This document shows, piece after piece, positions 9,101 to 58,300 of a DNA stretch of 64,000 nucleotides (the stretch's first letter is position 1; each line of letters opens with the position of its first letter). The stretch covers positions 9,939,061-10,003,060 of the forward strand of contig CM082584.2 in NCBI GenBank assembly GCA_040954595.2. Reading direction: 5' to 3'. This DNA is from Balanoglossus misakiensis (Eukaryota > Animalia > Hemichordata). Under the pieces are notes generated by a model that was given only the letters and a program-made list of their open reading frames with translations, ran no database searches and had not been told where the DNA came from. The position numbers and the translations under genes are program-made.

Positions 9101-12100
9101 GCGACGCCTCCGAGTACATGTGCAACAACAGCTACTGTATCCCCGACCGGTGGCTGTGTGACGGCGATGTCGACTGCACGGACAGTTCCGACGAATCGGA
9201 GGAGGTGTGTGGTTCGGAGTCGCCACCGTCGCCGTGCTCATCTAGAGAGTTCACTTGCTCCAACCAGGAGTGTATTCACATTTCGTGGCACTGTGACGGC
9301 GACGTCGACTGCACCGATGGATCAGATGAATACAACTGTCGTAAGTATTTAGGTTTCTGAGAATTCTAAAAAAAAATTGTTGCGAGTTTGAGATCATGAA
9401 AAGAGTGCTAATGTTGAGTGTCTGTAGGCAACAGGGACTTACCGACCTGCCCTTTCCCCTTACAGCACGCGAACAGACCTGCGACGAAGATCAGTTCACC
9501 TGCGCCTCTGGCGACTGCATCATGGGCGTGCTGCAGTGCAACGGCGACCGCGACTGCATGGACGGCTCGGACGAATGGGAGTGCACCACCACGCCGGCGC
9601 CGTGCGACTCCACGACGAAGTTCCAGTGCGGCAACGGCAAGTGCATCGACTTGAGCAAGGTCTGCGATCACCGGAACGACTGCGACGACTGGTCAGACGA
9701 ACCGGAGGATGGCAAATGCAGTAAGTTTTACATTATGATGCAAAAAAAATTCAGTTGCAGACTGTACACTTTACAGATATTGCATGTTTTTTTTCTCTCT
9801 CACTCGTTGTAATGCATAATATTTTTTGTCACTATTTCAGATGTAGACGAGTGTGCGGAGGATAACGGCGGGTGCGCACAGCTGTGCCACGATCTGAAAA
9901 TTGGATATTATTGCATGTGCAACGACGGCTACGAACTGTTGGAGGACGGCAAGACGTGCGAGGATATCAACGAGTGTGCGATTCCGGGCACCTGCAGCCA
10001 GGACTGCGAGAACACAAAGGGTGGATTCAAGTGTAGCTGCATCGACGGTTACGAATTGGATCACGACCACACCCGGTGCAAGCCGGTGGGCGGCGGCGAC
10101 GCCCTCCTGTTGTTTGCCAACAGGATGGACATCCGCGAGATCAACCCGGTCCTGAATGAGTACAGAGAGATTGTCAAAGACCTGCGCTCTGCTGTGGCCC
10201 TGGATTACGACTACCAGAGGGGATTTCTGTACTGGACCGACGTCGGCACTGAGCAGATCCTCAGGTGAGTGTTCATTAAAAATGCAGCTGGCGTCTCTGT
10301 CGATTTCTGTGATAATCCTGTCAACAACAAAAATCGCCCAGTGATGCAGTCAGTTGCCAACTAACACACCTTTCTTGTCTGTGCAGGATACCCATTGATG
10401 GTCAGGGCGAGACTCAAGTGATCATCGAAAATGACGTACACACTCCGGACGGCGTGGCCATCGACTGGATCTACCAGAACCTCTACTGGACAGACACTGG
10501 CACCGATTCCATCGAAGTGGCCCATCTGGATGACGAAGGCAATGTGACACACAGGACTGTTCTCATAAACGAGGATTTGGATGAACCCAGAGCCATTGTC
10601 GTGGATCCAATCGAAGGGTATGTGTCTCTTGCGTGTGTTTTTTTGCATGAATGAGAGAAATCAGTTTTTAATGTCAGTAAATTTAGCCACAACCTGTATC
10701 TCTCTCATCTGCCCGAGGACGATCTTTTCTAACTTCTAATTTGTCTACGTTGCATCGTCAACAGGTTTATGTATTGGAGTGACTGGGGCGAACCTGCCAA
10801 GATTGAGAGAGCGGGTCTGAACGGAATGGACCGAGCCATCCTTGTGAACACCGAAATCCTGTGGCCCAACGGACTGACCATCGACTATGTGTCGCGGCGA
10901 ATCTTCTGGGCGGACGCCAAGCTGCACTTGCTGGGCAGCTGCAACTTGGTGGGCGGCGACCGGGTGAACATCATCTCCTCGGAGTCGACGCTCCCTCACC
11001 CGTTCTCCATCACCGTCTTCGGCGACGACATGTACTGGACCGACTGGGAGACGGAGCAGATTCACAAAGCGAACAAGTTCACCGGCGGCGGACACGTGAC
11101 GCTGACGGAGAAGCTGTACTCGCCCATGGGAATCCACGTCTATCACCCAGTCAGGCAACAAAGCGGTGAGTAAACCTAGTGGTACTCTTTTAACCGGGGC
11201 AGTTCAGATGAAGGGTGTAGAGGAAATAATGGGACTGACTTTGTTTTTCTGATGAGTTACTTATGAGGTACCTTATAGAAGAATGGGGTTTGCATAAATT
11301 GACAAGTGTTTTTAGCATTTGTGTGTATAATATATATTTGCCAGTGACCTCGTTGAATGAAACAGCCACTGACTTGGTTTTTCCTGATCTCTGTTCCTCT
11401 TTCTCCAGGAATCAACCACTGCGGGGTCAACAACGGCCGATGCTCGCACTTGTGCGTGGCGGCACCACAGATCACAGCCCGCTCGGCCAAGTACTCATGC
11501 CTGTGCCCGGTCGGCTTCTCATTGCTGGAAGACGGCCACACGTGCAACGTGAACGGCGCCACCCCGAAACCGGGACTCGCCCCACCAGGTGAAGCCACCC
11601 ACCCGACCACCCTCCCCCCTTCGGTCACGGTGACCGGACCCAGGGCGCCGTTTACCACCAAGAAGGGTCCCGCCGCCCACGAGGCATCCTCGGCCATTGC
11701 CGCCGGCGAGCTGGCCGGAATCATTATTGGAGCGGTGTTCGCAATTGTTATCATCGTAGGCATCATTGCGCTGTTCCTTTGGAGGTAGGGCTCTCCACAT
11801 TCATAGAATTGTGTATTTCTTAATTATGTCTGACTTGGAAGAAAATGTCTGAATGATGTCATTAGTCTTTTGTGGGTCAGGATTTTAAGGGTTAATTTTT
11901 TAAGTGTAGCTCGCTTTTACTGTTTATATTTTCCAGACTTCTGACCATTTTCTCCTTTCTTAACCCCTGCAGGAACTATGTAAATAGAAGTAAAAGATCA
12001 ATGAACTTTGATAATCCTGTATATAGAAAAACTACTGAAGACCAATTTTGTCTAGAAAAATATCAACATAATCCTGGCAGAACATATCCACCGGTAAGTG

Positions 12101-34800: not shown

Positions 34801-37303
34801 CAGCCGTGGAAAGATTTCCATTGAGAAGTCTGCACCTGTGGTCTGCTATCATAGTACAAGCATAAATTATTATTTCATTGGATTTTCACACTAAACAGAA
34901 ACACTTGCAAAGTGCTAAGATTAAAAGCAAACAAGTCAATACCTTGTGTACCTTTTAACACTGGACACTAATGGATCAATTGTTTACAAATGAACCAGGC
35001 CAGCAATTAAGAAAACAAAAATAGGGCTTCTCAGGAAAGAATCACCACTTTTAAAATTTTAAAATCACCACTTTTAAAATAGATTTTTAAATGCCACATT
35101 TCTTAGTTTTGTCAGCCATGGAGCTTTTTTAATCTGTTCAAATTAAGGGCTTGATCTGTGACATGTTTTTTTCATGATAAAGTGAATGAATCTGTAGAAA
35201 ACAGAACTTTCTGTTTGCTGCTATTTGATTGCACTAACTTGGAATTTCACTGGGTTTTTCCTTGCTACACTAAAATATGGGAACATGGTTTTTGCCCACA
35301 AAACATACTTTTGTGAAGACACGCACACATGCAAAAAACATGTAGTATACTGTATAGAGCCTAGACTACACTGCTATACATGCGTGCACATGCTGTCATA
35401 TTTGTCTAAGTCAGTTTTTGGTTGGGTTAAACCTAGGTGTACGTGTTCTGGAAAATTGTTGGCATGCTGCCCCTTTCCGTGACCGACAGCTGTACTTGTT
35501 TTGTCATGATTGACGGCGAGGGAACAACTTAACGAGGCTTTTTTGTAGGGAAACAACTGTTTTGCTGCTGCGGCCAGAATCGAAAGAGTCCCCCCCCCCC
35601 CCTCCCTCCGGTCCTACACTATGGTCCTTCATACGCAACATGACGCATGAAATGAACACTTGTGCAAAAAAAAAAAAAAAAAAAACGTATTACGTTTTTT
35701 TTGCGCAAGTGCAAGTAACGTTTTTGTGCGGTCGGCACTTTGTGCAGTAGTGTTACTATAGTTAGAAGATGCGATAATTCATAGGACACTCAGCTCCGTG
35801 TAAAGGTACGGAGAAAAGCGGACACTACACGACTAAATACTGCGCTGAAATGGGCTCTCCGAAACGGAAAATGCGGACGATGATGGGGCAACGTGTATTA
35901 CATAACATTTTATTTGAGTGTGCAGCACGTTAAAACGGTACGTAACTTGTGACGTCGTGGGAGTTCGCCTTATTTGTACAAAAATCTTCTCGCCCCAAAC
36001 GCTATTTTTTGCATTTGGCAAGCGGGCAGCGGAAACATACACCATGACATGCAACCGATTTATGTTCGATTTCTGGACGGAGATGTTTGGCTCCGGACCG
36101 TAGCAAATTTCAGCCAAATATCGCAGAATGTAGACGTCTCTTGTAAGTTGTTACGTGTTGTATGGGAGGTACATGTACTTTACAGACGACCTGTTCTGGT
36201 TCTCAAAGAAGCTCACATTTCAATAACAAAGCTAAGCGTACGCACGCACCGCTATACACGTACTACGCTTTCCCAAATTTTGTCACGGAAGGGATCCTCG
36301 CACGTCGCAAAAATAAGATATTGATATTGGTGTATGGATCATTGTCAACACAGGACTTGGGTAGCAGAAGTGTCCCCCACCCCCACCCCACCCACCCCTG
36401 CTGGAGTATGCGGCAATGTGGGTCAGGTCAGCATGCATATTTAGTTGACGGGGGAGGGGCGTGTCTTATGGCAGGACTTAACAGACTGACTGACTTGAGT
36501 CTCAACTCTAAAAATGGATTACACAACTAATCCACACTAGAATCACACATTTCGAAATTTACTTTATTCCACACAAATTATTCAATTTAAAACGAGAGAA
36601 AGTCATGCCAATTTCAAATTTGTATGGTACTTGAATAAAACACTAAACTCAACCACAGAGACTAAAGCACTTTTTATTTGAAACCGTTGTTCTTCTACAG
36701 ACTTGAAAACTGCTGACATCATGCTTACACAGCGCTGGTCCATGTATTGATCCTTTAGCCATCGGTTATGCAAGAGTTTGCCCTTAGCTGTAATATTTGC
36801 ATTGCTGGTAAAAGGTTTGGGCCAAGGCAGTTATCACACAGCTGAGATGATAAGTAGTGCATATAAGCATTAACAGTACAGTGTGTACTAGTAGCACTCG
36901 TTTGTCCATCCTTCGAGTTACATATCATACCACACAGGTGCAGATGGACTATGGCTTACAGCAAAGTCAATGTGCTTGTCTGAGGTGATATAATTACAAC
37001 GAAATACTAAATACTTAACAATAGCATAATAATGACGAGCACGATTGTTTGGTCGTAACTATGGATGTCCCGGCCACAGATAAATGAATGATTATAACAT
37101 TGCTGAATAATTCATAATCATGATCAGATAACCATCCTTCACCGGCCGGACCGGCTACAGTAGTGTGACGACCCCCACTTAGGGAGGGGTCTGCTCGGGG
37201 TCCCCGACCGGCCTGCTGACAGCATTCCAGTCGATTCGCTAAAAACCATGTTAAACACACATGTCTAGAAAAGAAACGTCGAAACTTAAACGCATCTGGG
37301 TAT

Positions 37304-39410: not shown

Positions 39411-42249
39411 CGCTGCTGTTTAGAATCGACGGAAAACGAAGGCACTAGAGGTAAGCTGTCTGAAAGATTCGTCGCTTGGAGGCGCTGACCCTGTCTCTTC
39501 AGTTGGCCGCCTATATTGTCCCCACCGCTAGTGTACAAAAAAAATCCGTCTGTCATGGGTATCATGGTATTTCAGACCTTATTATGAGACTTAAGGTCGC
39601 TGTTTGTACGACAGCAGGAGATGGCCTTTGATGAAGCCGTTATTGGCAGACAGTGCAGCCGTGTGTCACCAGATATTACGGTCAAGAACACGATATGGGC
39701 GGCGATCACAAGCAACGCGTTCACCTCACTGGGTATATGCTCCTTATTTTGTCCTTGTGGGAATGCCTGTGTGTCCAAGAGGCATACGTGAATCTTAAAG
39801 AAACACACGCGCGCCTGTGTCCGTGCAAAAGCGCGCATAAAACGCCCGACCTCATAAACTCCGACCTCATAAAAAACGTCAAACGGCAATGGTTTCATTC
39901 TTCTGTCTGACTCGACACCTGCCCTCTCGCGGGAAGACCAGGTAATCGTGCACGTCCTGGTCGTAGTTGACGCAGGTTCTAATCAATGTCAGTTAAGCTG
40001 AGGACAGTTACACATCGTCAGGCATGGTCATATAAAGTGGACCCATGCATGGTGTAGCATGCATTCCTTCCTATGGCTGTTAGCCTTAGGACATCCCATA
40101 GCTGTTAGCGTGAGTCACCCTATATAGTTTTACTGCACTTTTGTTGGCGACGGAATGGGCACACAGAGAGAAGCGATTACGATTCATTGGTCTGGTTTGA
40201 TGGAGGCGGCCATTTTTGGGGTTGCAACCACTTAATTGTTTGCTTTTGTTTCCTCGGCTGCAGGTGCTCGCCCCGGGTTGCGCACGTTGTCGTGAGATAA
40301 ACTCTAGTTTGAATTTCACACCATGCAATAAAAGCAAAACTTTTCGTACCATGGGGCTTTAAGTCCACGGCAAATGCAATGTTAACGATGTCCGCGGCGA
40401 CAAACAGACGGCGGGCAACGTCACCATGGTGATGTAACCCAGACACAAGTATGTATGCACATGTGTACACGAAACAGTTGGGACATACTTGAGCAGTGGG
40501 GCAATACACATTAGGTCACCCAACCACACTTAACAAAAATACTTGGCCAGTATCAGCATTGCCCATTTAATACACTAAGTAATTCTGCCATGGGCAATTT
40601 TCGGTCCAACGGTAGCTTAAGTAACATCAACATGACATTTGATATTTTAAGATAATCAGCGCCCATTATCCAGTTTGCTTGTAATGTCATTAAATTACAA
40701 GCTATTAGGTTACTGTTGACTCTTGAGAGAAGAAAGGGATTCCAAAATATTATCTGAAAACAAATAAACAAATAACAAGACAAGCCACGGAACTGCCTAA
40801 TCGAAATCCCTGTCAAAGTTGTTTTTTCAACTGAATGTGCCACGCATACAGTTCGCGACGAGGTAGAGCACGTATATACGTACTTCCCGGCGGGAGAGAC
40901 CAAAGACGCGCGGGCGGATGAAACGATAGAGGCGGAGAATGTGGTGGTGGTTGTTGCGTTAGGAGGTAGTTTGTCAACACGTGGAATTGAGGGGGGGCGA
41001 TAACTGCAGTGATAGGGAGAAAGTTGAGCAGGGAATACGGCAAGATAGGTGTTGTAAGAGGTATGAAAGACGGTTCAAGTAACGACGGGTTAGAACTTGA
41101 CGGGAAAGATAACACTCTAAAACTAGTAGAATTCGTCTTTTGTGCCAAAAGTGCGAGTACCATGTATCGCCTGCCATTTGCAAGCACCGAATTCATGTAA
41201 CATGGTTTGAATTTCAGTTTTGCAACCTTCGCCGTAATCTTGGTCGCAGTTCAAGATTCATTGACATGTATCTATAATTAAACCCTCTTCTTGTTGGAGA
41301 GGGCCCTGGATTTGATACATCTTTGTTTTACTATGGGAAATCGCCCGGGGCACGGCCCGCAACTTTAGACAAACCTGTGGTCTGGAATCCCATCAGAGCT
41401 CAACTCCAGATAGTTTTGTTATTTAGATTCATCGGCAGCTTAACATTCCCTCTGGCCGAAATACTGGAAGGCATTTCGCCCGGGTTGTTTTTTTACTTAT
41501 ACAAGCTTTAAACTTTTGGCTCTCACATTTGAAATCCTTCTGCCTAGGAACTTTGTCACCCGAAACTGGTAAGACGTCCGGTTTATTTAAAAACTAAATG
41601 CAGACTTCACCTCATACAGCTGCCGGGGGCGAACACACTTTTTCACTTGACGCGATTTTATGCGGCGGAGACCACTGCCACCTTTTCTGGACGTGTGAGC
41701 CTCAACGCTTTCTTTTGTAGAGTCTGTCAAGTTCAATAACAAGTAACCATAGCCGGAATATGTCCCAGACAAAATCAAACAGTTGCCCCATGTTGTCTGA
41801 AGGACAGCGACAAAAAAGTCCACACTTTTTGCGCCGTGTAGTATAGTACAAGCCCCGTATTTCTTTTGCCTGGAAACCTCACTGACAACGCCCTCAGGGG
41901 GTTCACATATTGTATATTTTCGCTCTTTTGTTTGCATGGTCATGGAATGTGGTCGTCGAGTAAACTATTTACTTGATTAAACATTCCATACAGTTCTACA
42001 AATTGAATGTCTGTGTTTAAAGGCAATTGAAAAAGCCCATGTGTCAGCTGGATGGCAGCGTGTAAGTAGACCATTGTTGCACGTCGTTAGTATTGTTGCA
42101 CTGTGACAACTTTACTCTTTTTCTCCTCTTCTGTTGATGTTTACGACAAATACAGCCGGTGGTGGTGTGTTCAAATAGAAACCGGAAGGCGGAAGGCGTA
42201 CCGAGACGACGAACACTAGTCCGGCTCTGCTGCACGACTCAGCCACACG

Positions 42250-42515: not shown

Positions 42516-45500
42516 ATGAAGATCATCGCCTGTTTAATAATATTACTAGCGCTTCTAAGTGTGACCCCAACAGGAGTGGTGGGAGGTAAGTTACTGTTTA
42601 TTTATCTTAAAACCCACACAACACCATAATTCACTAATTGAGAGAAGGTCCCTTCGCCACACACACATGTGGGCCTCATGGGCGAAAAAAATTACTCTTC
42701 TTCTGAAACCTCAACCTTCGGTCAAAAAGCGAGACGACATGTGCTATTATTTTTACAAACTTTTTTTGAGTGGGGGTTTTCATCTGTCTCACCCGACATG
42801 AGGTTCGCGCGGGTGAGTCAAGAAACGTGTAATGTCGAAGAGATTGAAATTTTTGGAGCAGAAAGAAAAAAAAATGCTAGCCTGCTACTTCGCCACTCCA
42901 TCATGCATGCGTAGTGCTTGGCGGGAAGCAGGGCCCGAGGCCATCTACTGTTTCAACTCACAGAGATCCCCGTAGTAGAAGCTATTAACAAGCCTAACCC
43001 TTAACCAGCGGGATATGCTTACATTACAAGTCAACGACTCCAAAACGAGCGAAGGGGAAAAAAGCAAAACGCAAGAGCCGCAGCAATCTTGATGTTTCTG
43101 GTTTCAGCCAAGTAGTAATTAGAAGCCATAACTGCGCACGCTCCACTTGGTTTTTTCGCCTGATCACTGAGCGCCGGGGGTTTTGGATGGCACCAGACCA
43201 TGGGGGCCGGGGGTTTGGTGAACGCCCCCAAGTTGGCGTGAACAATATTCGGGAGTGTAAACTTGATATATAACACACTGACTAATAAAATGGAGAATGC
43301 TACACGCTACGTTTATTTACAGGATGTACTTTTGGCGCTTTTTCAGCCGCAGTCACATAAAGATACTATCGTGTTACGACTCGCATTACGCGGCTTCGAC
43401 CTCCTTGAGGCTAATTGCAGCGAGACGCTTTTTATTTCATTTTCGCGAAGACGACGCGACGTCCCTTGGGATCGGCATCTACTGATGCACATTCTTATGA
43501 ATTTATTGTCACGCGACACGGGCAAACGTCGTCCGATTTGCATAGCCGTAAATCGCAATTTAAATACATTTGCTTGTTCTCACGTAATATGCGTTTGTAC
43601 CAGTAAAAAATGCTTATGCAACAACGATCGTGCTTGCTCTCTCCTCAGTCGACACGCTATTTGAGATGAAGATTCCGTTTTGTTCGCATTTGCCTTGTCA
43701 AGAATCTCCCTCTGGGGCAGTCGAAGCATTTAATGCTTTTATTAAAAGTGCACGGTACCTACAGAGCTCAGATGCCATCCATCCCCGGACCACCAGTAGT
43801 TCCATGCCCCCCCCCCCCCGCCGTCCAGCTAGGCCACGCGACGGAGCAGTGACCAAACGCGAGCATGGCGAGGCATAGCGTGACCTAAACCCGGCAGCAA
43901 CCTGATAAAATCAAGTTCACTTGAAGTTATTTTATGCTAACGATTAAACATCTGACAGTGATAGTTTATTCTGGAATGGTTCCAAGGTGCGCAAGACACA
44001 AATGAATGGGGCCACGCGGTTTCCAGACACGGTCCTAAGGGCTCAATCTAAACGACGCGGCAAACCCGCCACCGATAAAGATTCAACTTCAAAATTTTCG
44101 CGTCTGACAACCTGTAACGGTTCGAGAGAGAGGCTGGAAGTGTCAACACCGTTTGGAAACCCATAACAGAACAGTCGGGTGAACCTTGTGAACTGTCAGC
44201 GTCTGACAACAATATTTTCTTGACTTCTGCGACCGGGATTGCGGTTCGTTCTCAGGCGATGTGTTTCCGTGAGGTCTCCCAGAAAGATTATATTATTGTA
44301 TCATTCTTACAGCTGTTTATTCGCCGTGAGAAAAGTTGAAAGAATTTGACACTACCAGCGAAACGCGGTTAACACCTCGCCGAGCGAACATTGCGATGTC
44401 GTCTGTATTTACTACACCACGACGAAAGCCAGCGTCGTACCTGGCCCTTTTACGTGATGCAAAGTATAAATTATGGCATTAGAACTTGGCTCTCTCTCTC
44501 TCTCTGTCTCTCCAAACTGATCGATGTAAAGTGTAATCTGTCTTATATCTGTGTTTTTCTTGGCGATCACAGGTGAATGCAAAGCTGGAATGTTCACCTG
44601 CGCAAATCTGAAATGTGTTCCGGACAAGTGGAGATGCGATTCCGAAAACGATTGCGAGGACAACTCCGATGAAGACGGCTGCCGTACGTAGGCCTTACTG
44701 ACCAGCTCCTGCGCACTTGCACGCTAAGTAGCAGACGACGTTTAAATTGCGGCTCCCCTACCCCCTAAAATCGCCAAATAAAAGTCATTCTGCAGCAGCT
44801 TACGAGAACAAATGCCCTCTACTTCTTGTTTCTAGCAGGCGGCAGCTTTTTGCGGAGACCACGCTGTTAATTAGACTGGCACAGAAATCAATAGAGCGAG
44901 CTGCAGGTGTCTTACTAGCACACTTTTAGTGGCGTGCATACTAAAATTTTATAGTTTTGGGCCCCCGAGCGTTGTATGTCAGGTTCTTGTTTGCTACTTG
45001 AATTGTCGATTCTGTCCCTACAGGTGCGAGCTCGTGTAACAGCGATCAATTCACGTGTGCCACCGACGAAGACGGCGCTTTCTGCATCCCAGGTGAATGG
45101 AGATGCGATGGTGAAGACGATTGCAGAAATGCGCTGGACGAGCAAGGATGTGGTGCGTATCAATTACTGCTACCTTAAATAGTGTTGTTGTTTTTTGCAT
45201 CGTGCTAGTGGGTCTGGTCTCATTATAATAGTTGCATTGTGGGTAAAAAGGTCGAAAACTCATGCAGTACTGGTAAGAGTTTGAAGGAATGATATCTTTA
45301 ACTGCACATGTATTTCGACTTCCTTTTGGTCAGAAATGTCTGTCTTTGTTAGAGTATACTCGTTCGAATTTTGTCACGTTTTCAATTTGAGTTAATGTGG
45401 CTACTTCATTCAAAAGTTTTCGGGTGACTCCCAACTTTATTGTCTATTTTGAGAGAGAATAATCTAAAGTTGCCTCTAGCAAAATATGAGAAAAAGATGG

Positions 45501-48500
45501 ATTTTGATTAATGTTACATTAAATTACATAGTGGTGTTCCCATCCTGTGTAAGGATTGCCTGTAAGTAGGGATCGATAAACTCGCCGTATAAAATCCAGT
45601 GTTTGACAATTTGTCTTGGCAACCACAGCGGAGGGCAAAGTACGTGTATTTCGCACAAAAATACCGATTGTACTTTTTGGTGGGTTGACCAGATAGGATT
45701 TTCGATGGAGTGGTCGCCTTTGAAATGCGCTGTCACTGGAATGACCTAAGCCGACATTTTGCCTCGGGCAGTAATCGTTTCCACAGAACAAAAATAATAC
45801 CTGTCAAATCGATTGGACATCTTCCTTTCACCTCGTTAAAACCCCCCTAAACCTATTGACTAGTGAAAGCTTTCCCGCCCAGATTTGCTCATCACATATC
45901 GTCGTTTGTTTTGCTCAAACGTGGACCAGTGCAAAACAGGTCCATGTGAGGGGTGTGAATCTCACGCGAGAAGTGCTGCCTTCCCAAAGCTTTTTAAGAA
46001 GGAAAACATTTCTCTTTGTTAGCTAACATTCCCTCCAAATATTTAGGGGATCGTCTGCTAACGTGTCAGTACTTTTTATAGTCAGTAAACGACATACCTT
46101 TGTGGATGCAGATCACTGAGCTCGAGTTATTTAAGAGTCACTGCAATGGTTGCTTCGCCGAAAGGTAAAAGTTGGCACATCGCTCGTTAAAGGGACAAGC
46201 AATGGACATCATGTTTGACATTTTTCAGTTCATCTTTTCTTACTTTTTCTCCTCAAAACACATTGTTAACAAGAATGTCGGCTATGCATAGCAACCTGTC
46301 AAAGAAAGATTAATACTTGACGTTTCAACATATTTTTGACAGAAACTGCACCAGTTTTTGACAAAAACATACTTTGACATTTCAATCTAACATGGCCGCC
46401 GTTTGATAACTTTGTTATAAGAAGGCTTTTATGAACCCATTTTGTTCTAACTCGACACACTTGACTAAAAGTGTGCCACGAAATGGTCATTCGAACACTT
46501 AGACGCGCCATTTTGACCATATATACTAGTAGTCACTGTACACCTTTAATGATCTGCTGATGTATAGATGTAGTATTTGTTTTGGCGTAAACAGGGCATG
46601 GGAACAGCACATGCGCATCGAACGAGTACAGGTGCCCGGATGGGAAGTGCATCACTCACCGTTGGGTGTGTGACTTGGACCAGGACTGCAGCGACGGCTC
46701 CGATGAAGATGGCTGCCCGGAAGTGGAGTGCGACGTGTCCGAGTACCGCTGCCAGGACAGCTACTGTATCCCCAAGGTGTGGGTTTGTGACGGCGACGCT
46801 GACTGCATCGACGCGTCCGACGAGAAGAGCTGCGACGCGCCGACGGGGGCCAGGTACTGTTCGTCGAACAAGTTTGCCTGTTCGGACGGGCAGTGTATCC
46901 ATATCTCGTGGCGGTGTGATGGAGACATAGACTGTGACGATGGAACGGATGAAGTCGATTGCTGTAAGTGTGCAGGTCTTTTCGCATTTGAATGATTTGC
47001 ATAAAGGTCACCACAAAGGTCAAAACTCGCATTCCCGTCCTCCGACCCAACCATTCTGGTTGACTCCTCAAACTCATAGCACGTGGCCCGTGTGCCTGGG
47101 GAATTTGTATGCGCCGTGATTTTTTTGTCGTATCTTTCGACACTTACCATGTCTTCATAAAAAACGCTTTTGAAATAACAGAATGCTATATCGAGTACAT
47201 CACGTATGATATCCATGGAGGATATACATTTTCCGAAGAAGTATAGGAATTTCAATAAAGTATATTTTAAGACCCATGCTTACTCAGATGGTCACGTGGC
47301 AGACAGCGGGCAGAACATTTGAAACGCGATCATGTTTCAAATACTGCATGGCGATATTATCTTTAATGCATTTATTAGCATTTATCTGTCATTAAAGGGA
47401 CAGAGTCGCTCACTTTTGATGTTATTTTGGTTATGCTAGTTTCTTTCATACATGCTTTAATGCGTTTTGAGTCATGGTCAATCACCAGTGCTCTCAACTG
47501 AACTCACTTTATATAGATGTGGCCTTAAGGTAGAATGCGCCTCAAAAGTCAAAGTCTTAAACTTTCTCTCGTATTTTGCTCTTTAGATTATTCTCTCTTT
47601 ACATTGAGAATAAATATTGGGGAGAACCTTGCAAAAATGTGAATAACCGACCAAATTGTCTCGATTAGAAATTCAAAATGGCCGCCAATTTCTGTGTTAG
47701 GTCTATGGAGAAAATTTAAAGTAGCGATTTTCATGAAAACAAGACGGTGAACATCCAGCTATCACCTCATTTGTTTTCGAAATTACTCCCCATTTCAATA
47801 AGGATTTCAGTCCGATTGACATAATTCCGACAATTCAGTTTTCACAGTCTGTTGTTATTTTATTTTCATTGTTAAAGATGACGTGGTGTGTCAAGATCTG
47901 TTCAACTGCGGCGGTGGTGAATGTGTCATGAATATGCTCAGGTGCAACGGATTCAGAGATTGTAGAGACGAAACAGATGAAAGGGGCTGCCCATCTTATG
48001 CGACACCCTGCGACCCTAGAACGCAGTTTCTATGTGATAACGATCGTTGTATCGACGTGAGCAAAGTCTGCAACCATATTGACGATTGTGGGGATCGATC
48101 TGATGAACCTAGTTATGGACACTGCAGTAAGTGTGAAAAGTGTTACCTATATATGTAAGGATTATGTCGATAAACTGCACTTGTAATACAGAACATAAAA
48201 ATGTCGAAATGTAGCCAAAAATTACACATATTATCATTTCAATCTGCGTGTTTACATGTCACTTGTTTTGCTCCTTTTGCTGTAATGATGGAAGCTTCTT
48301 TCCTTGTGGGGAAGAAGAGGTAGACTGCTGTGGTCGTATTTATTTATTTTGTGGGTTATGTTTTTATTTTCAGAAGCCTGGGAGTGTAAGAAGAACAACG
48401 GAGGTTGCTCACACACGTGTCACGATTCGCCAGACGGACACCATTGTTCTTGTAACCAAGGCTACGAACTCCTCGAGGACGGCAGGACGTGTTCGGAGTT

Positions 48501-51500
48501 GAGACCCTGCGACATCCCGGGCAAATGCAGTCAGCTATGCAAGACGACCAGGAACGGACACCGATGCTCGTGCGTGGACGGCTATGAACTCGACCGAGAC
48601 CGCAGATCGTGCAACCCGGCCGGCGGCGAGCCCACCCTCCTCTTGGCCAACAGGAGGGACATCAAACGCATCAATCCATGGTCCAGGACCGTCGAGGACC
48701 TGGTGCCAGTGACGGAGTCGGCCATCGCGCTGGACTACGACTACCAGCGAGGGTATTTATACTGGAGTGACGTCAGCGAGGAGCAGATACTGAGGTATGT
48801 ATCGGCATGATAAAATATTGACAGTGCTCTCAACTGGTAAGCGCTTGCAAACACGGACGGGTCCATTGTGTGTGTGTCACCTTACTAGGTTAGCCTAGCA
48901 TACCACCATGCGGTCTGTCCGCTTTGTGTGCAAGGCCGTATGCTCGCCGCAGTCAGCGAACAAACTCGCAGTACATGAATCACTCCACACAGAGCCTAAG
49001 CCTTGAAGTGTGGCCAATCTCTTAAGTACAAAGAATGTAATGATGATAATTTCAATAAATCTAACAACATATCATTATCGTTGATATGACAAAAGGCAGA
49101 TGACATGCTGTGCCCACCCACAACCAATCAGTTGCTCATAACTTAAATTGTAGACTCTGTGACATGCGCAAACCACATTGCCGGAGACAAGGCGTAATGA
49201 CTCACACAGAACGCCGTCAAAACTCCGGCTGTGATACATGTACTCAAAAACATCTTCGCCCGAATCCATATCACGTGATTTCGACCTTCAGTCTTCCCGG
49301 CAGCCTTGGGTCCCGTAACCGGAGATCGGAAGTTTGCGCGATACTGAGCACGGGGATGAAGGATCTCCCCAGTTCCCATGGGAACCGTCTCCCTCGCATC
49401 GCGAAGGATTCACAGTAAAAGATATGGTGATAATTCTTTATTGCATAACTCTGCCGACGTTTCACCAAAGTTAAAGTTCGCATATGATAAATGTAGAAGT
49501 CGGTGCTCGAGATTAAACTACTCAGCCGAGTCATCGCCTCTTTAATTAAACATCATTGTAAGTTCACCGTTTTCACCACAGTTATTTATATCAGCGACGA
49601 ATTTAGAGAAGTACCTCTCTGGGAGTTCTTGGTGCTATTTCTGTATAAAGGTCACCGTTTGGGATTGGCGCTAAGTCCACTTTTGTTCAGCCGTGTTTGC
49701 GCAGACGAACACCTGCTGGAGAGTGATGACCGAATATACACGCGCCAACAATAGCTTTGACGTTGTTGTTCCGCCATCTTCTCTAAGGAGAGTTTGAGGT
49801 GTACCGTTCCGCGAATTTGGTCGCTTGCTTTGATCGTTTTCACAAGTTGTTTCTGTGTGTCTTTGTGCTTAAAGGAGACCAATTAACGGCAATGGAGACA
49901 CCGAAGTGCTCGTGGACGAGCGAATCCACACTCCGGACGGCGTTGCGGTGGACTGGATTTATCAGAATCTCTACTGGACGGACACGGGCGAGGACACGAT
50001 CGAAGTTGCCCATCTGGTGCCGAGACACGGCTCTATTCAGCGGACAGTACTTATCAGCGAAGGGTTGGACGAACCTCGAGAAATCGTTGTGGATCCTTCC
50101 GAGGGGTAATTAAATTAGATTAAATTTCAAGGCATTTCATATTGCACGTACACAAGCGAGAACATTCTGAAAGTATTCATTAAATGCATTTAAATCACAT
50201 TGACATGTTTGGCATGTCATTTCTAAATGCCCCCAAAAGACAGCCGACATAAACAACGTGATTGTGTCGAGTTAATTAGAAAACCACTGAAAACCACGAC
50301 TGCCTTGGCGGATCTTATTGAGAGAGAAAAAAATAGAAGGCTTATTACTAGTTTTTCTGTAGTCGTCCGACGAAGCTTTGATATGTCCCGAAAGGTTGCA
50401 TTTCCCACCCAAGACGGATCGGAATGCCGGGCCGTCTTCCCCAAATCCCGGGATAATCCCAGTCGCGAGCGGGCCGCTAATACTAGATTTTATGGAATGT
50501 TTATCCTTCAAACCGCCTGATTATCGCTTATCCCAATGACGAGCCATTGATGTCCTGCTGTATTTTAGTCCTTTGCTGGAACATTGTGAAAGTTAATATT
50601 GTTGTGAACGGCTGGCCACGATAAATCGTGTTGTTTTATCAGATATCAATTTCTCTGTGTGAGGTTATAATTTTTGCTGCTGTTTAGTTACTGGTCAACG
50701 TAAATCGTAGCAAAAAAGTTAACACTCCACTCGTAAGATAGCTTACAGGCGTCATTTTGAAATGAAATTCGGTTGAACGGGCTACAATGTTTTGATGTTG
50801 ACAAAAATATCGATTAACGACTCTCAAAACCCGGTATTGCCAAAAGGGGGGAACTACTTTGTCCACTATGCGTGTCAAATGCCCAGACAAACCCCTCCAA
50901 GCTGTCGATTGCTCACTTGGAAGATAACTATCGGGAACAAATAACTTTCACCCAATCGTTCCTCGATAATCCCTGTGCAAACACACAGTTACAACGTCAC
51001 ACGCTACAGTGTTAAGCACAAGTGTCAATAGTTTAGCGCCGATGTTTGGACAGAAAACACATCTCCGCACTCCAATGAAAACAATGTTTTACATCCAGCC
51101 TATTTTAGCCGTGTTGTTCTGGCTCTATTATTCTTAAAAATTGTACAGGCCAAAATATTGATACAAAGTGAAGTCATCCTTTCTGCCTTCCATAGGGCCA
51201 AGGGTCATAGCTTCATACATAGTAATGTCCCATACTTGTTGAAGAAAACTTTCATACTTTAATTGTTGTACCGATTACCGTTTGATGATAACGACCAATT
51301 TAATGTACTTTGTTTAATTTCGATATTGTCACCCAGCTTCATGTACTGGACAGACTGGGGCAGGGACGCTAAGATCGAGAAGGCAGGGATGAACGGTTGC
51401 GGACGCACGGCCATCGTGCACGAAAACGTCCTCTGGCCCAACGGGCTGGCCATGGACTACGTGGCGCGGCGCATCTACTGGGTCGACGGCAAACTGCAGC

Positions 51501-54500
51501 TGATGGCCAGCGCCGGCCTGAACGGCGAGGACCGGGTCAACATCATCGTGTCCAGCTTCCTGCTCAAGCACCCGTTCTCCGTCACCGTGTTCATGGACCA
51601 CGTCTACTGGAGCGACTGGGAAACGCATAAAGTCTACCGGGCCAATAAGTTCCACGGTGGGGACAAAACGTTCGTCGTGGAAAACCTCTACTCGCCAATG
51701 GGCATCATCGTTTACCACAGCTTGAAACAAATGCCAAGTAAGTACACCCACGTGATCCATTAGTTAACCAATCACGTCAGTTGAATCTGTTGCTGGGTTT
51801 GCCAGACCCAGTGTGCATGTAAAGACAATGGTCAGGTATTTGTTGTCATCCGAAAAAGGTCAGTGACCGAAGATCATGCCCAATAAACGTGTACACCCCA
51901 TCAATTAGGGATCAGCATTCTGGATCAAGTCTATCGAATTGGCAAATCTGTCGGATGATTCCTTGAAACAATACCTGTGTAATTAACCCCAACCAGAAAC
52001 TATCACGAGCTCTTAGGAGAGAACCATTTGATTTCTGGGGGTGGGTGGAGGATTTTTTAAGCCACTGTCAAAGCCATTTTCTTCTCGATTGTCAGACAAT
52101 ATTTTTCCTCAAGACATTGCAGAAAATGTTCTTTCCTCCGCCCCATATACTAACATGTGCCGACAACTAATTAGTGTTCGACTTTACAACCGCGACCATA
52201 TCTCTCGTCGAGGTGCTTTAGACAAACAAGCACTCAAGACAATAGACTGTTGACAATTCTCAGGTACGGAGTCCAATAACAAATCGGCAGACTTCAAAAA
52301 GAGTACTCGCCAAGAGAAACTCAAAATTCGGAATGTCACGTTGTCTTTCATTTCAGGCAGGAACAACTGCGGCGACAACAACGGCAAGTGCTCTCACATC
52401 TGCGTGGCTGGACCCGCAACCGACGGCTGCCCGGCCGCCTACACCTGCCTGTGTCCCAGGGGCGTCAAGATGAGGCCGGACGGCCATACCTGCAACGTGA
52501 GAGGCATCACTCCGCACCCAGATCTGATTGTGGGTAGGTGGCGTTTTTGTGTGTGCATGTCACGTTCTACACACGTGACCAGCTTGTTGCATTCGAGTGT
52601 TTATTATGTGTCTCGTTCTGCAGATATTTTCGGACCTGCACACAAATATGCCACGTGGCAGTATTAATATTTACACCGTATGTCGGAAGAACATTTTGAG
52701 ATTCATAAGTTTATCGCATTCCATATAAACAATGTTTTAGTTCAAAACCAAGCCTCGCTTGCCTCTTTTGCGCACGCGTGATCGCGTGAACACCAATCGG
52801 CGTGGCAGTATGGCACAAACAGGCATCGTCTTCCAAACACCCCGCAAAGCCACAGAGCGTCGCCGTTTCCGCTGACGAGCTACAGTTACATATATTGGTG
52901 ACGAAATGTGAAATATAACTTCAGACGAAGTGACGCTTGGTCGATAAAGTTATCGTTTGACATGTTATGTGTTTTTTGGGGTGGCTGTAACCTAGCAACT
53001 CGGGCGCTGGGGAATACCCGATTTCCACCAGCGTTAACCAACTTTAATGACCGAAGGAGAAAAGCACAAAGCCGCAAACACAATCACACTCTTGAAAGTC
53101 GATAGTTTCAGTAGCGCGCCGATCTTGGGAACTTAACTAGGCGCGGAGTTGGAACCACTTTACCTTTGTAACCGATTCAACAGAGCGTGGTAGACATGCA
53201 ATGCACAATTGTAACAAGAGTCTGTCTCTCCTTCTTCTCAAGTGTTTGGTTGTTAAAAACGTCCGGTGCGGCGTACCTCGGCATGAGGCAATTCCTCGAC
53301 TCGTATATCATCGCAGTGTCTTGAGTTTAAATAAAGTATCGTCCCGAATTAGACGGCAGCTTACCAGAAAAAAACTTGTATATTCCGGTTTTGAGTTATT
53401 AAGTTTACGCCAGCAGTGTAATCGCCTTTAGTGTGCGGATAAATTAGCCTAGGGTATCTAGGCCAATTTTACTTGGGTCGGAGAGATGTCTCTTTGCGAT
53501 TTGCATCGCTATTTCATTATAAACAATGAGGCAAATTTAACCTGAATTATTAGCCTATAGTTTCTCTGTATATATATTTAAGCTCTGATGAGACCACAAA
53601 GAACTAGTCACCATCGTCGTAAACCACAGCCTCTTTACGGCAACCGTTTCAGCTAAAATAGATGCCCCCCTCCCCGCGACACTGATACGAGTACAGCTTT
53701 TAGTCTGAAATTGATTGCCTTTGTACAACGTTTGGATGTAGTCGCCTCAGGCATGGTTGGTAATTGGTTGTGATATATTGCGAAGTACATACTTTCTTGG
53801 GTTGATAGTGTTGCCATACGGCCACAGGCAACGATTGATCAATTTTACGCACGTAGGGCAAGGTATCTTATTTTCTGTCTCGTGTGTAAAAACGTGAGTG
53901 TTGGCATATCTTTATATTAACTAAGAAACCAAACAATCATATCACACACATGATATATGTTATCTGATCTTCCCTTCTTCTGTCATTTTACCCTAGCCGA
54001 ACCCTCATACTCCATCAGCGTACACCTGGATTCACAGTTGTTTGAGGGCACAAGGAAGAAATCTGTGAGGTTCACACTCAAATGCACTGTGTCGTCAAAG
54101 GGCGATGACAAATATGAAGTGCTGTGTCGTCCAGACGACCAAGAAGAGAACTCCACCGACGCCATCTTGTTCCAGTATAAATGCAGCGGAAGCAAGAAGA
54201 AAGAACGGAAGCGGCGACAGAAACGAGATGCGTCGCAAGGTATTGAAAGGTCACTGAAATATATTGATGTATGTATGAACATGTGTGTATGCATACATAC
54301 TATGTGCGTATGTATACATGTGTGTATGTATGGATGGATGGATGGATGTGTGTACTACCCAGATACCCATTTATTCACCCACACACATCCGAGTATCTAT
54401 GTGGTTCTCTGAACACAAATTCCTTTTGTTTGTTTTTTAGGTCGGAGCAATCCCAAACTTGCCCTCAAAAAGGTCAGCACAGAGACACTCCAAACCGCCG

Positions 54501-54715
54501 CGTCGGAAGATTTGCCATTTTTCCTTCGTTGCAAGTCAAAAAAGCCCAAGTCCGGAAGTCAGGAGGACGCGGCGGAAGTGAGCGTTGGGTGTTCCCCATC
54601 CCATTTCGAACTGCCTGATGGGAAAAGAGACAAAATCAAGAAGTCGCGCAACGCTGCCAACTTCAAATGCAAGTCGCAGAGCAAGAGAAAGCGAGGGAGG
54701 AAGGCCGATAATTAG
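42516..54715 (+). CDS. LDLR/VLDLR-family paralog, predicted secreted (7 LDL-A, 2 EGF, YWTD propeller, EGF-C, unrecognised basic Cys-containing C-terminus; no TM or NPxY), 891 aa
   Basis: Exons: 42516-42585 (signal peptide [23 protein letters not shown]), 44573-44683, 45024-45152, 46595-46963, 47878-48126, 48374-48794, 49875-50105, 51337-51737, 52357-52533, 53997-54239, 54441-54715 (TAG). Total 2676 nt, open throughout, all GT-AG with matching phases. Four exons have exactly the same length as in gene 1 (111, 369, 231, 401 nt). The ectodomain call is near certain; joining of the last two exons is inferred from splice signals and frame. Confidence 0.88.
47392..47800. mobile_element. Interspersed DNA-transposon-like remnants with TTAA-purine termini
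   Basis: TTAAAGGGACAGAGTCGCTCACTTTTGATGTTATTTTGG at 47392 recurs as TTAAAGGGGCAAAGTCGCTCATTTTTGACGTTAGTTTGG at 59645. A second TTAAGGTAGAATGCGCCTC start lies at 47525. Boundaries uncertain. Confidence 0.45.
54265..54350. repeat. Simple repeat (TATG/TGTG/GGAT) in the last intron of the paralog
   Basis: gtatgtatg...gtatgtatggatggatggatggatgtgtg read directly. Confidence 0.7.
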
Positions 54716-55282
54716 AAGAGCAGCCCCGCACAAGGCAGTGTGGGATACCCGAACGCATTTGTGAAAAAAATGTTGAATCCAACTTGAACGAATATATGTT
54801 ATCTTGCAAGTTCGTGATGAGGGCTACATACTGCCTGGCGTGGCGTATATTCACAAATGGTACTAGACTCGTAGACTAAAAGTTGCGACACTATATACTA
54901 CAACGCTCACCATAAAAAAACTGCTTTCGCGAACGGTTTTATATATATTTAAATAAGTGAAAGACAAGGACGCTTTATATCGGCACTCTTTGAGCTGGAA
55001 GCTGATGACGAAAGTTGAAGTTCCTGGGCACAACGTTCCCGTTCCCATCCTCGACCAGTCCCCGACTGGCAAGGACCGAAGACATTAATAGTTTGTGTTT
55101 TAAACACATGTTCTTAACCCAGGAGGTGAAAGGTCAATCGGGAGACGATTGAAACACAAAGTTGAGTGTCTGCACCACAAGCCACAGGCGAGTCTCATCA
55201 AATTAATACTTGTGTTTGAAAACAACAAAAGATCGCAAGTATAAACTCCAGGCGCATTGTTTTCCTGGGGTAGTTAGCGAAC

Positions 55283-55288
55283 AATAAA
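55283..55288 (+). terminator. Candidate polyadenylation signal of the secreted paralog
   Basis: AATAAA about 570 nt after the TAG at 54715, with ATTAAA at ~55305. Confidence 0.45.
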
Positions 55289-55399
55289 GATTCGACACTG
55301 CCCAATTAAAATACATGGTGTACACACGTGATAGGTTTTAGTACCATGATTTCGACGGGAAAAAATTATTTTTGCTAAAGAGGGTGTTATGTATAATAG

Positions 55400-58300
55400 T
55401 CTGATGATGCGAGAGACGACTGCAACTGTATACTAGTCCGAACATTGGTAGAATGGTTTACGTATATATTGGTCTTGATAGAGAACTATATATTTTTACC
55501 CTGCGGTGTCACATTATCGACCATTGAGACGAAGGTCCATGTATAAATAGCGAAGCGGCAATCCGATATGCGCATGGACACCGACGTGGGTTTACTTCTG
55601 TTTCTGTCCTCCTTCCTCGCGCACTTGTGGTGTGTTTTGGCTACGTCATCCCCACGACCAGCCTCTCTGTTCGCCTTGAAGACGACGTCCAAGACGATTG
55701 CGGGAATTCCCTGGTTGAAAGACGGCACTTTGATCGCCTTTCATCATTGCAATCCGGGCGCTGAAAAAAAAAGCTTGCGTCAATTCACATAGCCTGTCTT
55801 TTTGTGATTATTCGTAGAACCTTATGCACATTATGACGAAAACAAATTTCATTTGATTTAGGGTTGGTCTTTAATACCAAATCATTACAGTTTGAGAGAA
55901 ACTCGTAAAAATATAACTTATTTATTGTCCAACACACAATATTGTCGAAGAAAAATACAAAATATGACCCCCAACACTGCCTGGCATTTCCCGCCAAAAC
56001 CCTATGGACAAAATAGCCGCATTAACAAACGTTCCAATCCAAGTTTACTTACTGCTCTGAAAGATGTTTTTATTTGACGAGATAATCTTACATCCTCTTT
56101 GTCCAAGATTTAGCGCGCTTAATTTCTTAAGGATTTTCGAAAACCCAGAATATTAATTAAACAAATTTTGACGGCTGGCAAATAAATTGTAACGTGAGGA
56201 CTGTTGTCTGCGTATAATTCTCGGCTAAATTTCCAATTCGATGAAGAGTGTGTTGTCGTTTGCACACCATAGGATGGTTTACGCTTGCGCATTAGTGATA
56301 GTGCTCTCCAAAACACACGGCGGTTGGATACTAAACAAGTCTTGCTTTTTTGTTCTTAGCCGCCTTTCTGCTTTTATGTTTTTATTTAAAAGGCAAATGC
56401 TGCTGGCTTTCTGAATGAGTTAAAAGTTGCGGACCCCGCCTTTAAAAATAAATAGAAAAAAATCCAGTAAGTAAAAGTAATGACATTGAAATTGTGAAGA
56501 ATCACTCCGCTTTTGTGAGACCTACAGCACACGATAATCAGAGCAATGAAAAGACACCCCCACTTAAAGCTGTCAAAAGTAGGCGAGGCAGTCGTGTTAG
56601 TATTTGCGCTTAGCGAAGCGATCGCCTGACAACATTGACGTAAAATGAGCTAAGTTTAGCTCGTTCCCTCTGGCAAAGTTCAGAGATAACTAAGAACAGA
56701 CGTGCTGTAAGAATAACGCAAGATGTGTGATTACTGAGAGTACATGACTGTCTTTAATTTTTCTTTGGAAATTGGCAATTCGGTCCGTAGGTTAGTACAT
56801 TTTAGACAAGCAAGTTTCTCCTGTGCTTAGTTTTTAAATTAACATCATTAAAGGATGATAAAGGAACACTTTTTTTCTGAGATGAAAGGTTTGATATGTT
56901 TTATGGCAGGAGTAGTTTCCCGCGATAATGTAAATGCCTGTTGTAATTTGTAATCATACCCATACATGTAAAACGTCGCATTATTGTTTTACAGCTAACA
57001 CATTTTTGTCGAGAGTGGTTGATTACGTACTTGAGAAGTTGAGGGAATGATTTCGTAGGAATTTCTCCTGTATTTCACCTGGACTGTGTCAAAGTTCTGA
57101 CGCCATTTTGAAGTGCGTTTATGTCCATACATAATGGTAAATTTCACTGTGCGGACGACAGCCTCAACTTTTGTTTTTTAATGCGAAGTCTCACGAGACT
57201 TTGGGGGGATTTCAGAAATGTGCGTGTATCTGCAGGCATGTGACCCGGTTGGATGTTTTGCGTACGTTCACTGGCTTTTTCTGACTGTCTGTAGACTATT
57301 TAGACGTTTAAAGTATGTTTGATAACATAGCAATCCGTGGGCGATCAAAATAGGAAAAAAGACATTGTTTTTGCAGTTATTCACGTACACGTAACACGTA
57401 CGCTAACACGGTCGTTTTGCGACCAACATACTTCAGATGCTAAAATGACGTGAATAAGCGTATATACATGGCGATACTATACCTCGGCTTTCATAGATTG
57501 TTTTGTCGACTAACAAGCAATCAAAATTAGATAGGAAGAAATACCGAAGGCTATATATTCCACAAAGGGTCAAAGTTCAAAAGTTCTGCTCATAGACAGC
57601 AAAATCTGTCTCTCTCTCGACTGTAAGGGTTGACACAGGAATTGACATCCATATTGTCTTGTATTTATTCGAGACGTTGGTTTCAATAAACCTTTCGAAA
57701 TTTGTACACATTTCAAACGTGTGTTATTCGTGTTATTAGCAACTTTATCGACTGAAGTCGAATAATTTTGACAATATACTCGACTCCATAGTTGGCGACG
57801 CGGGGCTAATCTGATAATTGGATTGTCCGCCATCACCTCCAGTTGTCAACCGTCAACTGTCAGCTTCTTCCCAGAAACTGCTTTGACGGTATCTGTGGAA
57901 TTTGGTATGTCGAGTTTGTGTGATAGGTGGAGTGCCCGCCGTCGTCGTCATCGGTTGTGGCAGCTTTCAACTTCTCACGAAGCGCTATTCCGTGCAGTAG
58001 CTTTGAGATTTGGTATTCATGTCTCTCCAGCGATGGCATACCAAACGTCTTCTCAAAACTCGTTTGTCCGATAGATTTGAACCACGAGGCCACACTTTCT
58101 AGTTGATGCTTAGCAGCTTTCTTGCTCTACCCCGGAATTTTGAATGTAGAAGTAAATACATGTATTAACTTACGTTGTTTGCAAAAAATACCAAGGAAAT
58201 GAAGGAATATGCAAAATATCGAAATGAATTAACGGTAACGTCAGCCCTCACACCACGGTATTTTCAATGGATGCGCCTCGTTTATAAGTCCCCATTGTAG

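What the first reader, a model, noticed from the sequence alone, without database searches (positions are those of the whole stretch)
42516..54715. Gene-encoded soluble lipoprotein-receptor paralog: stalk, TM and NPxY tail replaced by a new C-terminus
Seen: an intact 891-aa frame with signal peptide and full ligand-binding/EGF-precursor ectodomain, colinear with the neighbouring receptor. The EGF-C exon is cut short by a donor at 52533 (177 nt vs 376 nt in gene 1), which removes the O-linked stalk and TM. I found no hydrophobic exon or FDNPVY exon downstream; two unrelated hydrophilic exons follow in phase to a stop and poly(A) signal. Established: core LDLR-family members are type I membrane endocytic receptors, and their soluble forms usually arise by shedding or splicing. 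Inference: a dedicated secreted ligand trap, decoy or carrier (lipoprotein, vitellogenin, protease complexes or pathogens) made by tandem duplication plus exon recruitment, paired with its membrane-bound parent.
Basis: partly seen in the sequence, partly recalled or inferred. Interest (0 to 1): 0.85.

Follow-up and report, generated by a model that had tools for sequence, protein, structure and literature searches.

The report
Acorn-worm lipoprotein receptor without membrane anchor
A copy of the lipoprotein-receptor (VLDLR-type) gene in what is likely an acorn worm has lost its membrane anchor and uptake signal and ends instead in two positively charged exons matched only in a second acorn worm, so it likely makes a secreted ligand trap that sticks to mucus or matrix, a form that mammals are reported to make by cutting the ordinary receptor.

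Summary
Confirmed. An 11-exon, all GT-AG, 891-codon gene (42516-54715) encodes a hydrophobic signal, 7 LDL-A repeats, EGF-A/B, a YWTD propeller and EGF-C. Two hydrophilic exons follow, with no stalk, transmembrane helix or NPxY tail. A Ptychodera flava RefSeq model (XP_070563429.1) has the same tail, the same two junction sequences and the same last 16 residues. Exon 10 is 56/81 identical and exon 11 is 68/91, against 79-88% for the propeller and EGF-C exons, so the tail is conserved coding sequence.

New here: P. flava also has a second anchorless subtype, with another propeller in place of the tail. Both subtypes form one clade (100/99) beside the membrane-bound gene 1, so the anchor was likely lost once. 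The new tail has six conserved cysteines, two basic clusters and a furin-type R-x-K/R-R site in both species.

Best guess: a secreted ligand trap held on polyanionic mucus or matrix and tuned by convertase cleavage. No RNA, ligand or fold evidence was obtained. Gene 1 is 30 kb away, behind an ovoA-like gene. New variant of a known kind.

The parts
42516..42585 (+). Exon 1: start codon and hydrophobic signal-peptide-like segment
   Evidence: Kyte-Doolittle 2.49 over residues 3-21; GT donor; SignalP not available
44573..44683 (+). Exon 2: LDL-A repeat 1
45024..45152 (+). Exon 3: LDL-A repeat 2
46595..46963 (+). Exon 4: LDL-A repeats 3-5 (369 nt, same length as the gene 1 exon)
47878..48126 (+). 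Exon 5: LDL-A repeats 6-7
48374..48794 (+). Exon 6: EGF-A, EGF-B and start of the YWTD propeller
49875..50105 (+). Exon 7: propeller (231 nt as in gene 1); 61/77 identical to the P. flava model
51337..51737 (+). Exon 8: propeller (401 nt as in gene 1); 108/134 identical to the P. flava model
52357..52533 (+). Exon 9: EGF-C, ending at a GT donor before the stalk and TM of gene 1's 376-nt exon; 52/59 identical to the P. flava model
53997..54239 (+). Exon 10: new module A (81 aa, 3 Cys, beta-strand pattern, N-glycosylation sequon, basic cluster); 56/81 identical to the P. flava model
54215..54226 (+). Furin-type R-x-K/R-R site (residues 793-796); the P. flava model has its only such site at the matching place
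   Evidence: the consensus is recalled, cleavage untested
54441..54715 (+). Exon 11: new module B (3 Cys, basic C-terminus) and stop codon; 68/91 identical to the P. flava model, last 16 residues identical
55283..55288 (+). First AATAAA after the stop (candidate poly(A) signal)
11409..11784 (+). Gene 1 (membrane-bound VLDLR-type parent): EGF-C, Thr/Pro-rich stalk and TM exon
11973..12093 (+). Gene 1: cytoplasmic exon with FDNPVY

Best explanation
The gene encodes a VLDLR-derived ectodomain with no membrane anchor or uptake signal, whose new basic, cysteine-containing tail likely tethers it, once secreted, to polyanionic mucus or matrix, where it would trap or hold ligands away from the cell surface. 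Shown: the exon structure, the loss of stalk, TM and NPxY, the conservation of the tail in a P. flava gene model, and descent from a gene-1-like receptor through an anchorless ancestor shared with a second subtype. From family knowledge (recalled): acidic LDL-A repeats bind basic patches on ligands with calcium, and the propeller releases them at low pH. Inferred: secretion; binding of the basic clusters to sulfated or sialylated glycans; a convertase cut after residue 796 that frees or loosens the last 95 residues (net charge +12) and so shifts the protein between tightly bound and more mobile pools; disulfides pairing the two 3-cysteine modules. The ligand is not identified.
For: Intact 891-aa frame with 10 GT-AG introns. 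All 7 LA repeats have six Cys and an acidic motif; the region's net charge is -44. The P. flava model matches across both new junctions and to the last residue. Tail identity is 69% and 75%, against 79-88% for the propeller and EGF-C exons. The 6 tail Cys, the N-glycosylation sequon and an R-x-K/R-R site sit at matching places in both species. The tail has 41 K+R in 179 residues, pI 9.75. Tree: gene 2 + P. flava model 100/98; with the second anchorless subtype 100/99; with gene 1 99/97. Precedents: soluble apoE-receptor fragments keep ligand binding and block the membrane receptors (PMC1635701, passages and section 31); SOD3's basic C-terminal heparin-binding domain sets matrix distribution and is removed by furin (PMC12774472, abstract); deuterostomes sialylate glycoproteins and mucins heavily, with expanded enzyme families in hemichordates (PMC4729200, passage).
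Against: No transcript, protein or ligand evidence for this gene. The P. flava record is a predicted, N-terminally incomplete model (457 aa, covers exons 7-11 only), and its RNA support could not be seen. Only two species carry the tail. A cut after residue 796 would leave a basic cluster (net +8 in 15 residues) on the receptor part, so it would not strip the anchor the way SOD3 cleavage does. R-x-K/R-R can arise by chance in basic patches: the window protein has 3 matches, one inside EGF-B. The second subtype lacks the tail, so tethering is not general to the anchorless clade. Homology between modules A and B is weak (shuffle p about 0.008-0.1 in 4 pairs; hhalign probability under 1%).
Confidence: 0.45

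Rival explanations
1. It is a freely soluble carrier or decoy in blood or coelomic fluid. The tail is a folding or oligomerisation unit, joined by disulfides, that raises avidity rather than a matrix anchor.
For: Each module has an odd number of Cys (3 + 3), which allows inter-chain bonds. Module A has a predicted long beta-hairpin (residues 3-34, pLDDT 76-88 over residues 1-30). The sister subtype is anchorless without any basic tail.
Against: The most basic stretch, the extreme C-terminus, is identical in both species over 16 residues, which an oligomerisation role alone does not call for.
Confidence: 0.25
2. It is a structural cross-linker of an extracellular coat (mucus, egg envelope or basement membrane): acidic LA repeats at one end and a basic tail at the other let it polymerise or bridge other matrix proteins.
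For: Strong charge polarity (LA region -44, tail +17). LDL-receptor-like proteins occur in echinoderm skeletal-matrix proteomes (PMC4336488, passages; their architecture was not checked). Nidogen, which shares the propeller, is a secreted matrix protein, and sea-urchin egg-coat proteins are built from LDL-A repeats (both recalled, no call).
Against: The receptor layout is kept whole and unexpanded (7 LA, three EGFs, one propeller), which fits ligand capture better than a repetitive structural protein.
Confidence: 0.15
3. It is a two-product precursor: the convertase cut releases the last 95 residues as a cationic effector (for example antimicrobial), while the receptor part binds microbes or their products.
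For: The piece after the site has net charge +12, pI 10.0 (window) and +15, pI 10.3 (P. flava), is almost all encoded by one exon, and is 74% identical between the species.
Against: It matches no Pfam family, no solved structure and nothing but the P. flava model among 1.84 billion representatives. Its 3 Cys could keep it bound to the parent chain.
Confidence: 0.08
4. The gene model is wrong or the gene is not expressed: exon 9 is spliced elsewhere or read through, and the two last exons belong to another transcript.
For: No transcript evidence was obtained here. The P. flava model is a prediction with an intron-like N-terminus. Reading through the 52533 donor gives an open frame for 44 more codons.
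Against: Two separate predictions in two species agree on both junction sequences and the stop. The last two exons have no start codon with a signal of their own and are in phase with exon 9. No TM or NPxY exon lies before the next gene start at 63150.
Confidence: 0.07

Closest known systems
Core LDLR-family receptors (VLDLR, ApoER2/LRP8, LDLR; insect and crustacean lipophorin receptors)
   Same: Signal, LDL-A cluster, EGF-A, EGF-B, YWTD propeller, EGF-C in the same order. Four exons have the same or nearly the same length as in the neighbouring membrane-bound gene 1 (369, 421/424, 231, 401 nt). The P. flava orthologue matches solved ApoER2, VLDLR and LDLR chains at E 5e-75 to 3e-69.
   Different: Three of the five family domains listed in PMC5897026 (passages) are absent: O-linked stalk, TM, cytoplasmic tail. 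A 172-residue tail with no known relative takes their place.
Soluble ApoER2, VLDLR, LDLR and LRP1 of mammals (PMC1635701; passages and section 31 read)
   Same: A ligand-binding ectodomain free of the membrane, able in principle to bind ligand away from the cell; a furin-type site is involved in both.
   Different: Those forms come from the receptor's own gene by shedding or by a spliced-in furin exon. Here a separate gene encodes the anchorless form, and the furin-type site lies inside a new C-terminal tail.
SOD3 C-terminal heparin-binding domain (PMC12774472; abstract read)
   Same: A basic C-terminal segment on a secreted protein with a furin site, proposed to set matrix versus free distribution.
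   Different: An analogy only; no homology was tested or is claimed. The tail here is far longer, has 6 Cys, and cleavage would leave a second basic cluster on the main chain.
P. flava 'LRP4-like' models XP_070563498/499, XP_070563432/433, XP_070556167-169 (uncharacterised)
   Same: Anchorless (no TM-like window after residue 110, no NPxY). Their first propeller and EGF-C form the sister clade of this gene, and they leave gene 1's sequence at the same point after EGF-C.
   Different: They continue with EGF, a second propeller and EGF instead of the basic tail. The fullest model has 5 LA repeats.

Membership tests
Core LDLR-family endocytic receptor | N-terminal cluster of LDL-A ligand-binding repeats | tested here: met
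   7 repeats, 42 Cys in residues 24-310, acidic motif in each
Core LDLR-family endocytic receptor | EGF-precursor domain (EGF-A, EGF-B, YWTD propeller, EGF-C) | tested here: met
Core LDLR-family endocytic receptor | O-linked sugar stalk | tested here: not met
   exon 9 ends before it; no remnant of gene 1's stalk elsewhere in the window
Core LDLR-family endocytic receptor | Single transmembrane helix | tested here: not met
   best hydropathy window after the signal is 1.39; 1.26 in the P. flava model; hydropathy only, no TM predictor available
Core LDLR-family endocytic receptor | Cytoplasmic NPxY motif | tested here: not met
   none in the product or in the P. flava models; none in a plausible exon of 52300-64000
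VLDLR/ApoER2-type gene lineage (descent) | Propeller and EGF-C group with the single-propeller receptor rather than LRP4 or LRP6 | tested here: met
   clade with gene 1 at 99/97 in a 45-row tree; no VLDLR, LDLR, LRP8, LRP1 or LRP2 of other species was in the tree, so the name VLDLR-type rests on gene 1's architecture (8 LA, stalk, TM, FDNPVY)
Soluble decoy receptor | Secreted and binds the ligand of the membrane receptor | not testable with these tools
   a hydrophobic N-terminal segment is present; no expression or binding data
Furin-trimmed matrix-retention tail (SOD3 type) | Basic C-terminal segment with an R-x-K/R-R site | tested here: met
   site and basic clusters in both species; sequence only, consensus recalled
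Furin-trimmed matrix-retention tail (SOD3 type) | Cleavage removes the polyanion-binding segment | tested here: inconclusive
   a cluster of net +8 in 15 residues would remain on the main chain; binding and cleavage untested

The most novel reading that the evidence does not exclude
Ptychoderid acorn worms have built a small family of dedicated secreted lipoprotein receptors from one loss of the membrane anchor. This member caps the ectodomain with a new two-module, disulfide-linked, convertase-processed domain that parks it in mucus or matrix as an extracellular ligand or microbe trap: a hard-wired, separately regulated version of receptor shedding.
Probability: 0.35. Interest if true: 0.7.

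Novelty: new variant of a known kind. Interest (0 to 1): 0.52.

Why it matters
The review read here describes soluble LDLR-family ectodomains as shed or splice-dependent products and says that no physiological function had yet been assigned to them (PMC1635701, 2006). A separate, conserved gene for an anchorless form can be knocked down without touching the membrane receptor, so the question of what a soluble lipoprotein receptor does becomes directly testable in an animal. The locus also shows the steps of making a secreted protein from a receptor: duplication, a new donor site that drops the stalk and anchor, and different C-termini added in two sublineages. The 172-residue tail is a conserved domain with no relative found outside these two species.

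Tried and rejected
No whole genome is held, so copy number and the third gene could not be followed. RNA runs: none was listed, which is no evidence either way; read laying was therefore not used. DNA of the P. flava gene was not available, so dN/dS was not computed.

Tail relatives: the exon 10 search gave 1 hit among 10 candidates; the exon 11 HMMER search of 1.84 billion representatives gave 1 hit; both are the same P. flava protein. Exon 10 was not run through the full HMMER library. Pfam: nothing for exon 11, Ig-like_KY at E 0.1 for exon 10, rejected. PDB sequences: one hit at E 0.079 (ribosomal L6), rejected, and none for exon 11. ESM Atlas: no usable hit by features, structure hits all TM under 0.5. 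Metagenome contigs: 585 pattern matches, none confirmed. The search for full-length orthologues in other hemichordates was swamped by LRP4/LRP6 (120 of 1873 rows shown), so absence from Saccoglossus and Glandiceps is not established.

Folding: the single-sequence model of the P. flava protein failed (pLDDT 32). Module A gave only a beta-hairpin (mean pLDDT 60), and its fold search had no match under E 0.75; the top rows were long hairpins of pore stems and were rejected as generic. Module A with module B: no verdict (score 0.07). One search was a self-match and misaligned exon 10; neither was used. Off-by-one frames (gene 1; third gene) were corrected.

A recalled soluble Bombyx lipophorin-receptor isoform was not borne out by the passages read (PMC3391906) and was dropped. 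Ten paper searches showed no title or abstract start describing this gene or a gene-encoded anchorless VLDLR paralog. The library lacks most subscription papers, most hits were seen only as listings, and no supplements were read. Look-ups of earlier findings by place, sequence and words gave nothing on this locus.

Full report
Observation. I read the region and rebuilt the gene by coordinates. Eleven exons (42516-42585, 44573-44683, 45024-45152, 46595-46963, 47878-48126, 48374-48794, 49875-50105, 51337-51737, 52357-52533, 53997-54239, 54441-54715) all have AG acceptors and GT donors and join to 2676 nt: 891 residues and a stop. The product has a hydrophobic N-terminal segment (Kyte-Doolittle 2.49), seven LDL-A repeats with 42 cysteines and an acidic motif in each, EGF-A, EGF-B, a YWTD propeller and EGF-C. 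Exon 9 is 177 nt, whereas the matching exon of the membrane-bound gene 1 (11409-11784) is 376 nt and continues into a Thr/Pro stalk and TM helix, followed by an FDNPVY exon. After the signal the best hydropathy window is 1.39. A six-frame scan of 52300-64000 found 2 NPxY matches and 4 hydrophobic windows, none like gene 1's tail, and searches with gene 1's stalk-TM-tail found only gene 1. Exons 10 and 11 are the only 2 long, in-phase, acceptor-preceded open stretches in 52600-63100. An AATAAA lies at 55283.

Independent support. A search with exon 10 alone returned 1 protein among 10 candidates: Ptychodera flava XP_070563429.1, 457 aa, named LRP8-like. HMMER with exon 11 over 1.84 billion representatives returned only the same protein (E 3.5e-34). 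This model runs from the propeller through EGF-C into both new modules, matches across both junctions, and ends in the same 16 residues. Identity by exon is 61/77, 108/134, 52/59, 56/81 and 68/91 for exons 7-11. The tail is therefore nearly as conserved as the propeller, with all six cysteines and one N-glycosylation sequon kept. Limits: the record is a prediction, starts with an intron-like stretch and lacks the LA repeats, and its RNA support was not visible. No RNA run was listed for the window, and no genome is held. The organism is inferred to be an acorn worm close to Ptychodera from these matches.

A second anchorless subtype. A search with exon 9 returned 2 of 2 candidates: the same model and P. 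flava XP_070563499.1, whose cluster has four members. The fullest (1097 aa) has a hydrophobic segment near residues 89-107, five LA repeats, EGF-A/B, propeller and EGF-C, then EGF, a second propeller and EGF, and stops. None of the four has a TM-like window after residue 110 or an NPxY. They depart from gene 1's sequence at the same place after EGF-C as gene 2 does. In a 45-row tree of propeller + EGF-C units (IQ-TREE, 9 of the fetched LRP4/LRP6 proteins as outgroups), gene 2 pairs with XP_070563429.1 (100/98), these join the first propellers of the second subtype (100/99), and all join gene 1 (99/97). The simplest reading, an inference, is one duplication of the VLDLR-type gene, one loss of stalk, TM and tail, and then two different C-terminal additions. 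The tree had no VLDLR, LDLR, LRP8, LRP1 or LRP2 from other species, and the second subtype's intron positions could not be checked. The duplicate is not adjacent to its parent: 30 kb and an ovoA-like gene on the minus strand lie between.

The tail. The last 179 residues have 41 Lys+Arg, net +17, pI 9.75, against -44 for the LA region. Each of the two exons has three cysteines after short hydrophobic strands and ends in a basic cluster. The three cysteines line up in a four-way alignment, but the similarity is weak (16-190 of 2000 shuffles reach the score in the 4 pairs; hhalign probability under 1%), so an exon duplication is possible and unproven. An R-x-K/R-R site (consensus recalled) lies near the end of exon 10 in both species and is the only such site in the P. 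flava model. The window protein has 3 matches, two overlapping here and one in EGF-B. A cut there would free 95 residues of net +12 (P. flava: 96, +15) and leave a +8 cluster on the main chain. No family, solved structure or atlas match was found. AlphaFold2 gave a failed model for the whole P. flava protein and a beta-hairpin for module A with no significant fold match.

Mechanism. Shown: architecture, anchor loss, conservation, ancestry. From family knowledge: LA repeats bind ligands with calcium (recalled), and soluble ectodomains of ApoER2, VLDLR, LDLR and LRP1 keep ligand binding and can block the membrane receptors (PMC1635701; passages and section 31). Inferred: the protein is secreted and cannot endocytose. 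Its basic tail most likely holds it on polyanionic mucus or matrix, with convertase cleavage adjusting that hold, by analogy with SOD3 (PMC12774472; abstract only). Hemichordates have expanded sialic-acid enzyme families (PMC4729200; passages), which supplies a plausible partner but no evidence. I put existence as a real anchorless gene at about 0.9 and this particular mechanism at 0.45. The rivals are a free oligomeric carrier (0.25), a structural coat protein (0.15), a precursor of a cationic effector (0.08) and a wrong model (0.07).

Comparison and novelty. It descends from a core LDLR-family receptor but fails three of the five defining domains (PMC5897026; passages), so it is not filed as an endocytic receptor. 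It most resembles the shed and spliced soluble receptors of mammals, differing in having its own gene and a new tail. Ten paper searches showed no title or abstract start describing this gene or family. PMC3391906, PMC12480657 and PMC4336488 were read as passages only; no supplements were read, and hemichordate genome supplements may list these genes. Loss of a membrane anchor in a duplicated receptor is a familiar evolutionary route in other families (own knowledge), so this is a new variant of a known kind: real, conserved in two species, unstudied as far as these searches reach, with function inferred only. Interest 0.52.

Noticed in passing
window 23757-25504 (-): Exons of an ovoA-like gene (5-histidylcysteine sulfoxide synthase N-terminal and methyltransferase C-terminal models, E 2e-20 to 2e-8, single exons below the whole-protein cut-offs) lie between gene 1 and gene 2.
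   Followed up: partly
window 63150-63225 (+): A start codon and signal-peptide-like exon with a phase-1 GT donor opens a third gene. It resembles the hydrophobic N-terminal segment of the second anchorless P. flava subtype (9 of 5000 shuffles reach the score), but 1 of 123 control proteins scored higher, so the link is unproven.
   Followed up: partly
window 54840-58532 and 58873-61477: Four blocks recur in the same order about 2.9-4.0 kb apart at 68-83% identity: an old, degraded tandem duplication of the region just behind gene 2's stop. No copy of exon 11 was found in it.
   Followed up: partly
P0124-P0127 (P. flava XP_070563498/499, XP_070563432/433, XP_070556167-169): The second propeller of this anchorless subtype sits on a long branch (1.51) and groups firmly with neither gene 1 nor any LRP4/LRP6 propeller in the tree; its origin is open.
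   Followed up: no
window 48374-48794 (+), residues 384-387: A further R-x-R-R match lies inside EGF-B of gene 2; the second subtype lacks it and the P. flava orthologue model does not cover it, so it is probably chance.
   Followed up: no
window 33286-33555, 35836-36150 and 39575-39982 (-): Open stretches of 90-136 codons with no match in Pfam below E 0.02 or in NCBIfam; they may be exons of a further gene between ovoA and gene 2.
   Followed up: partly
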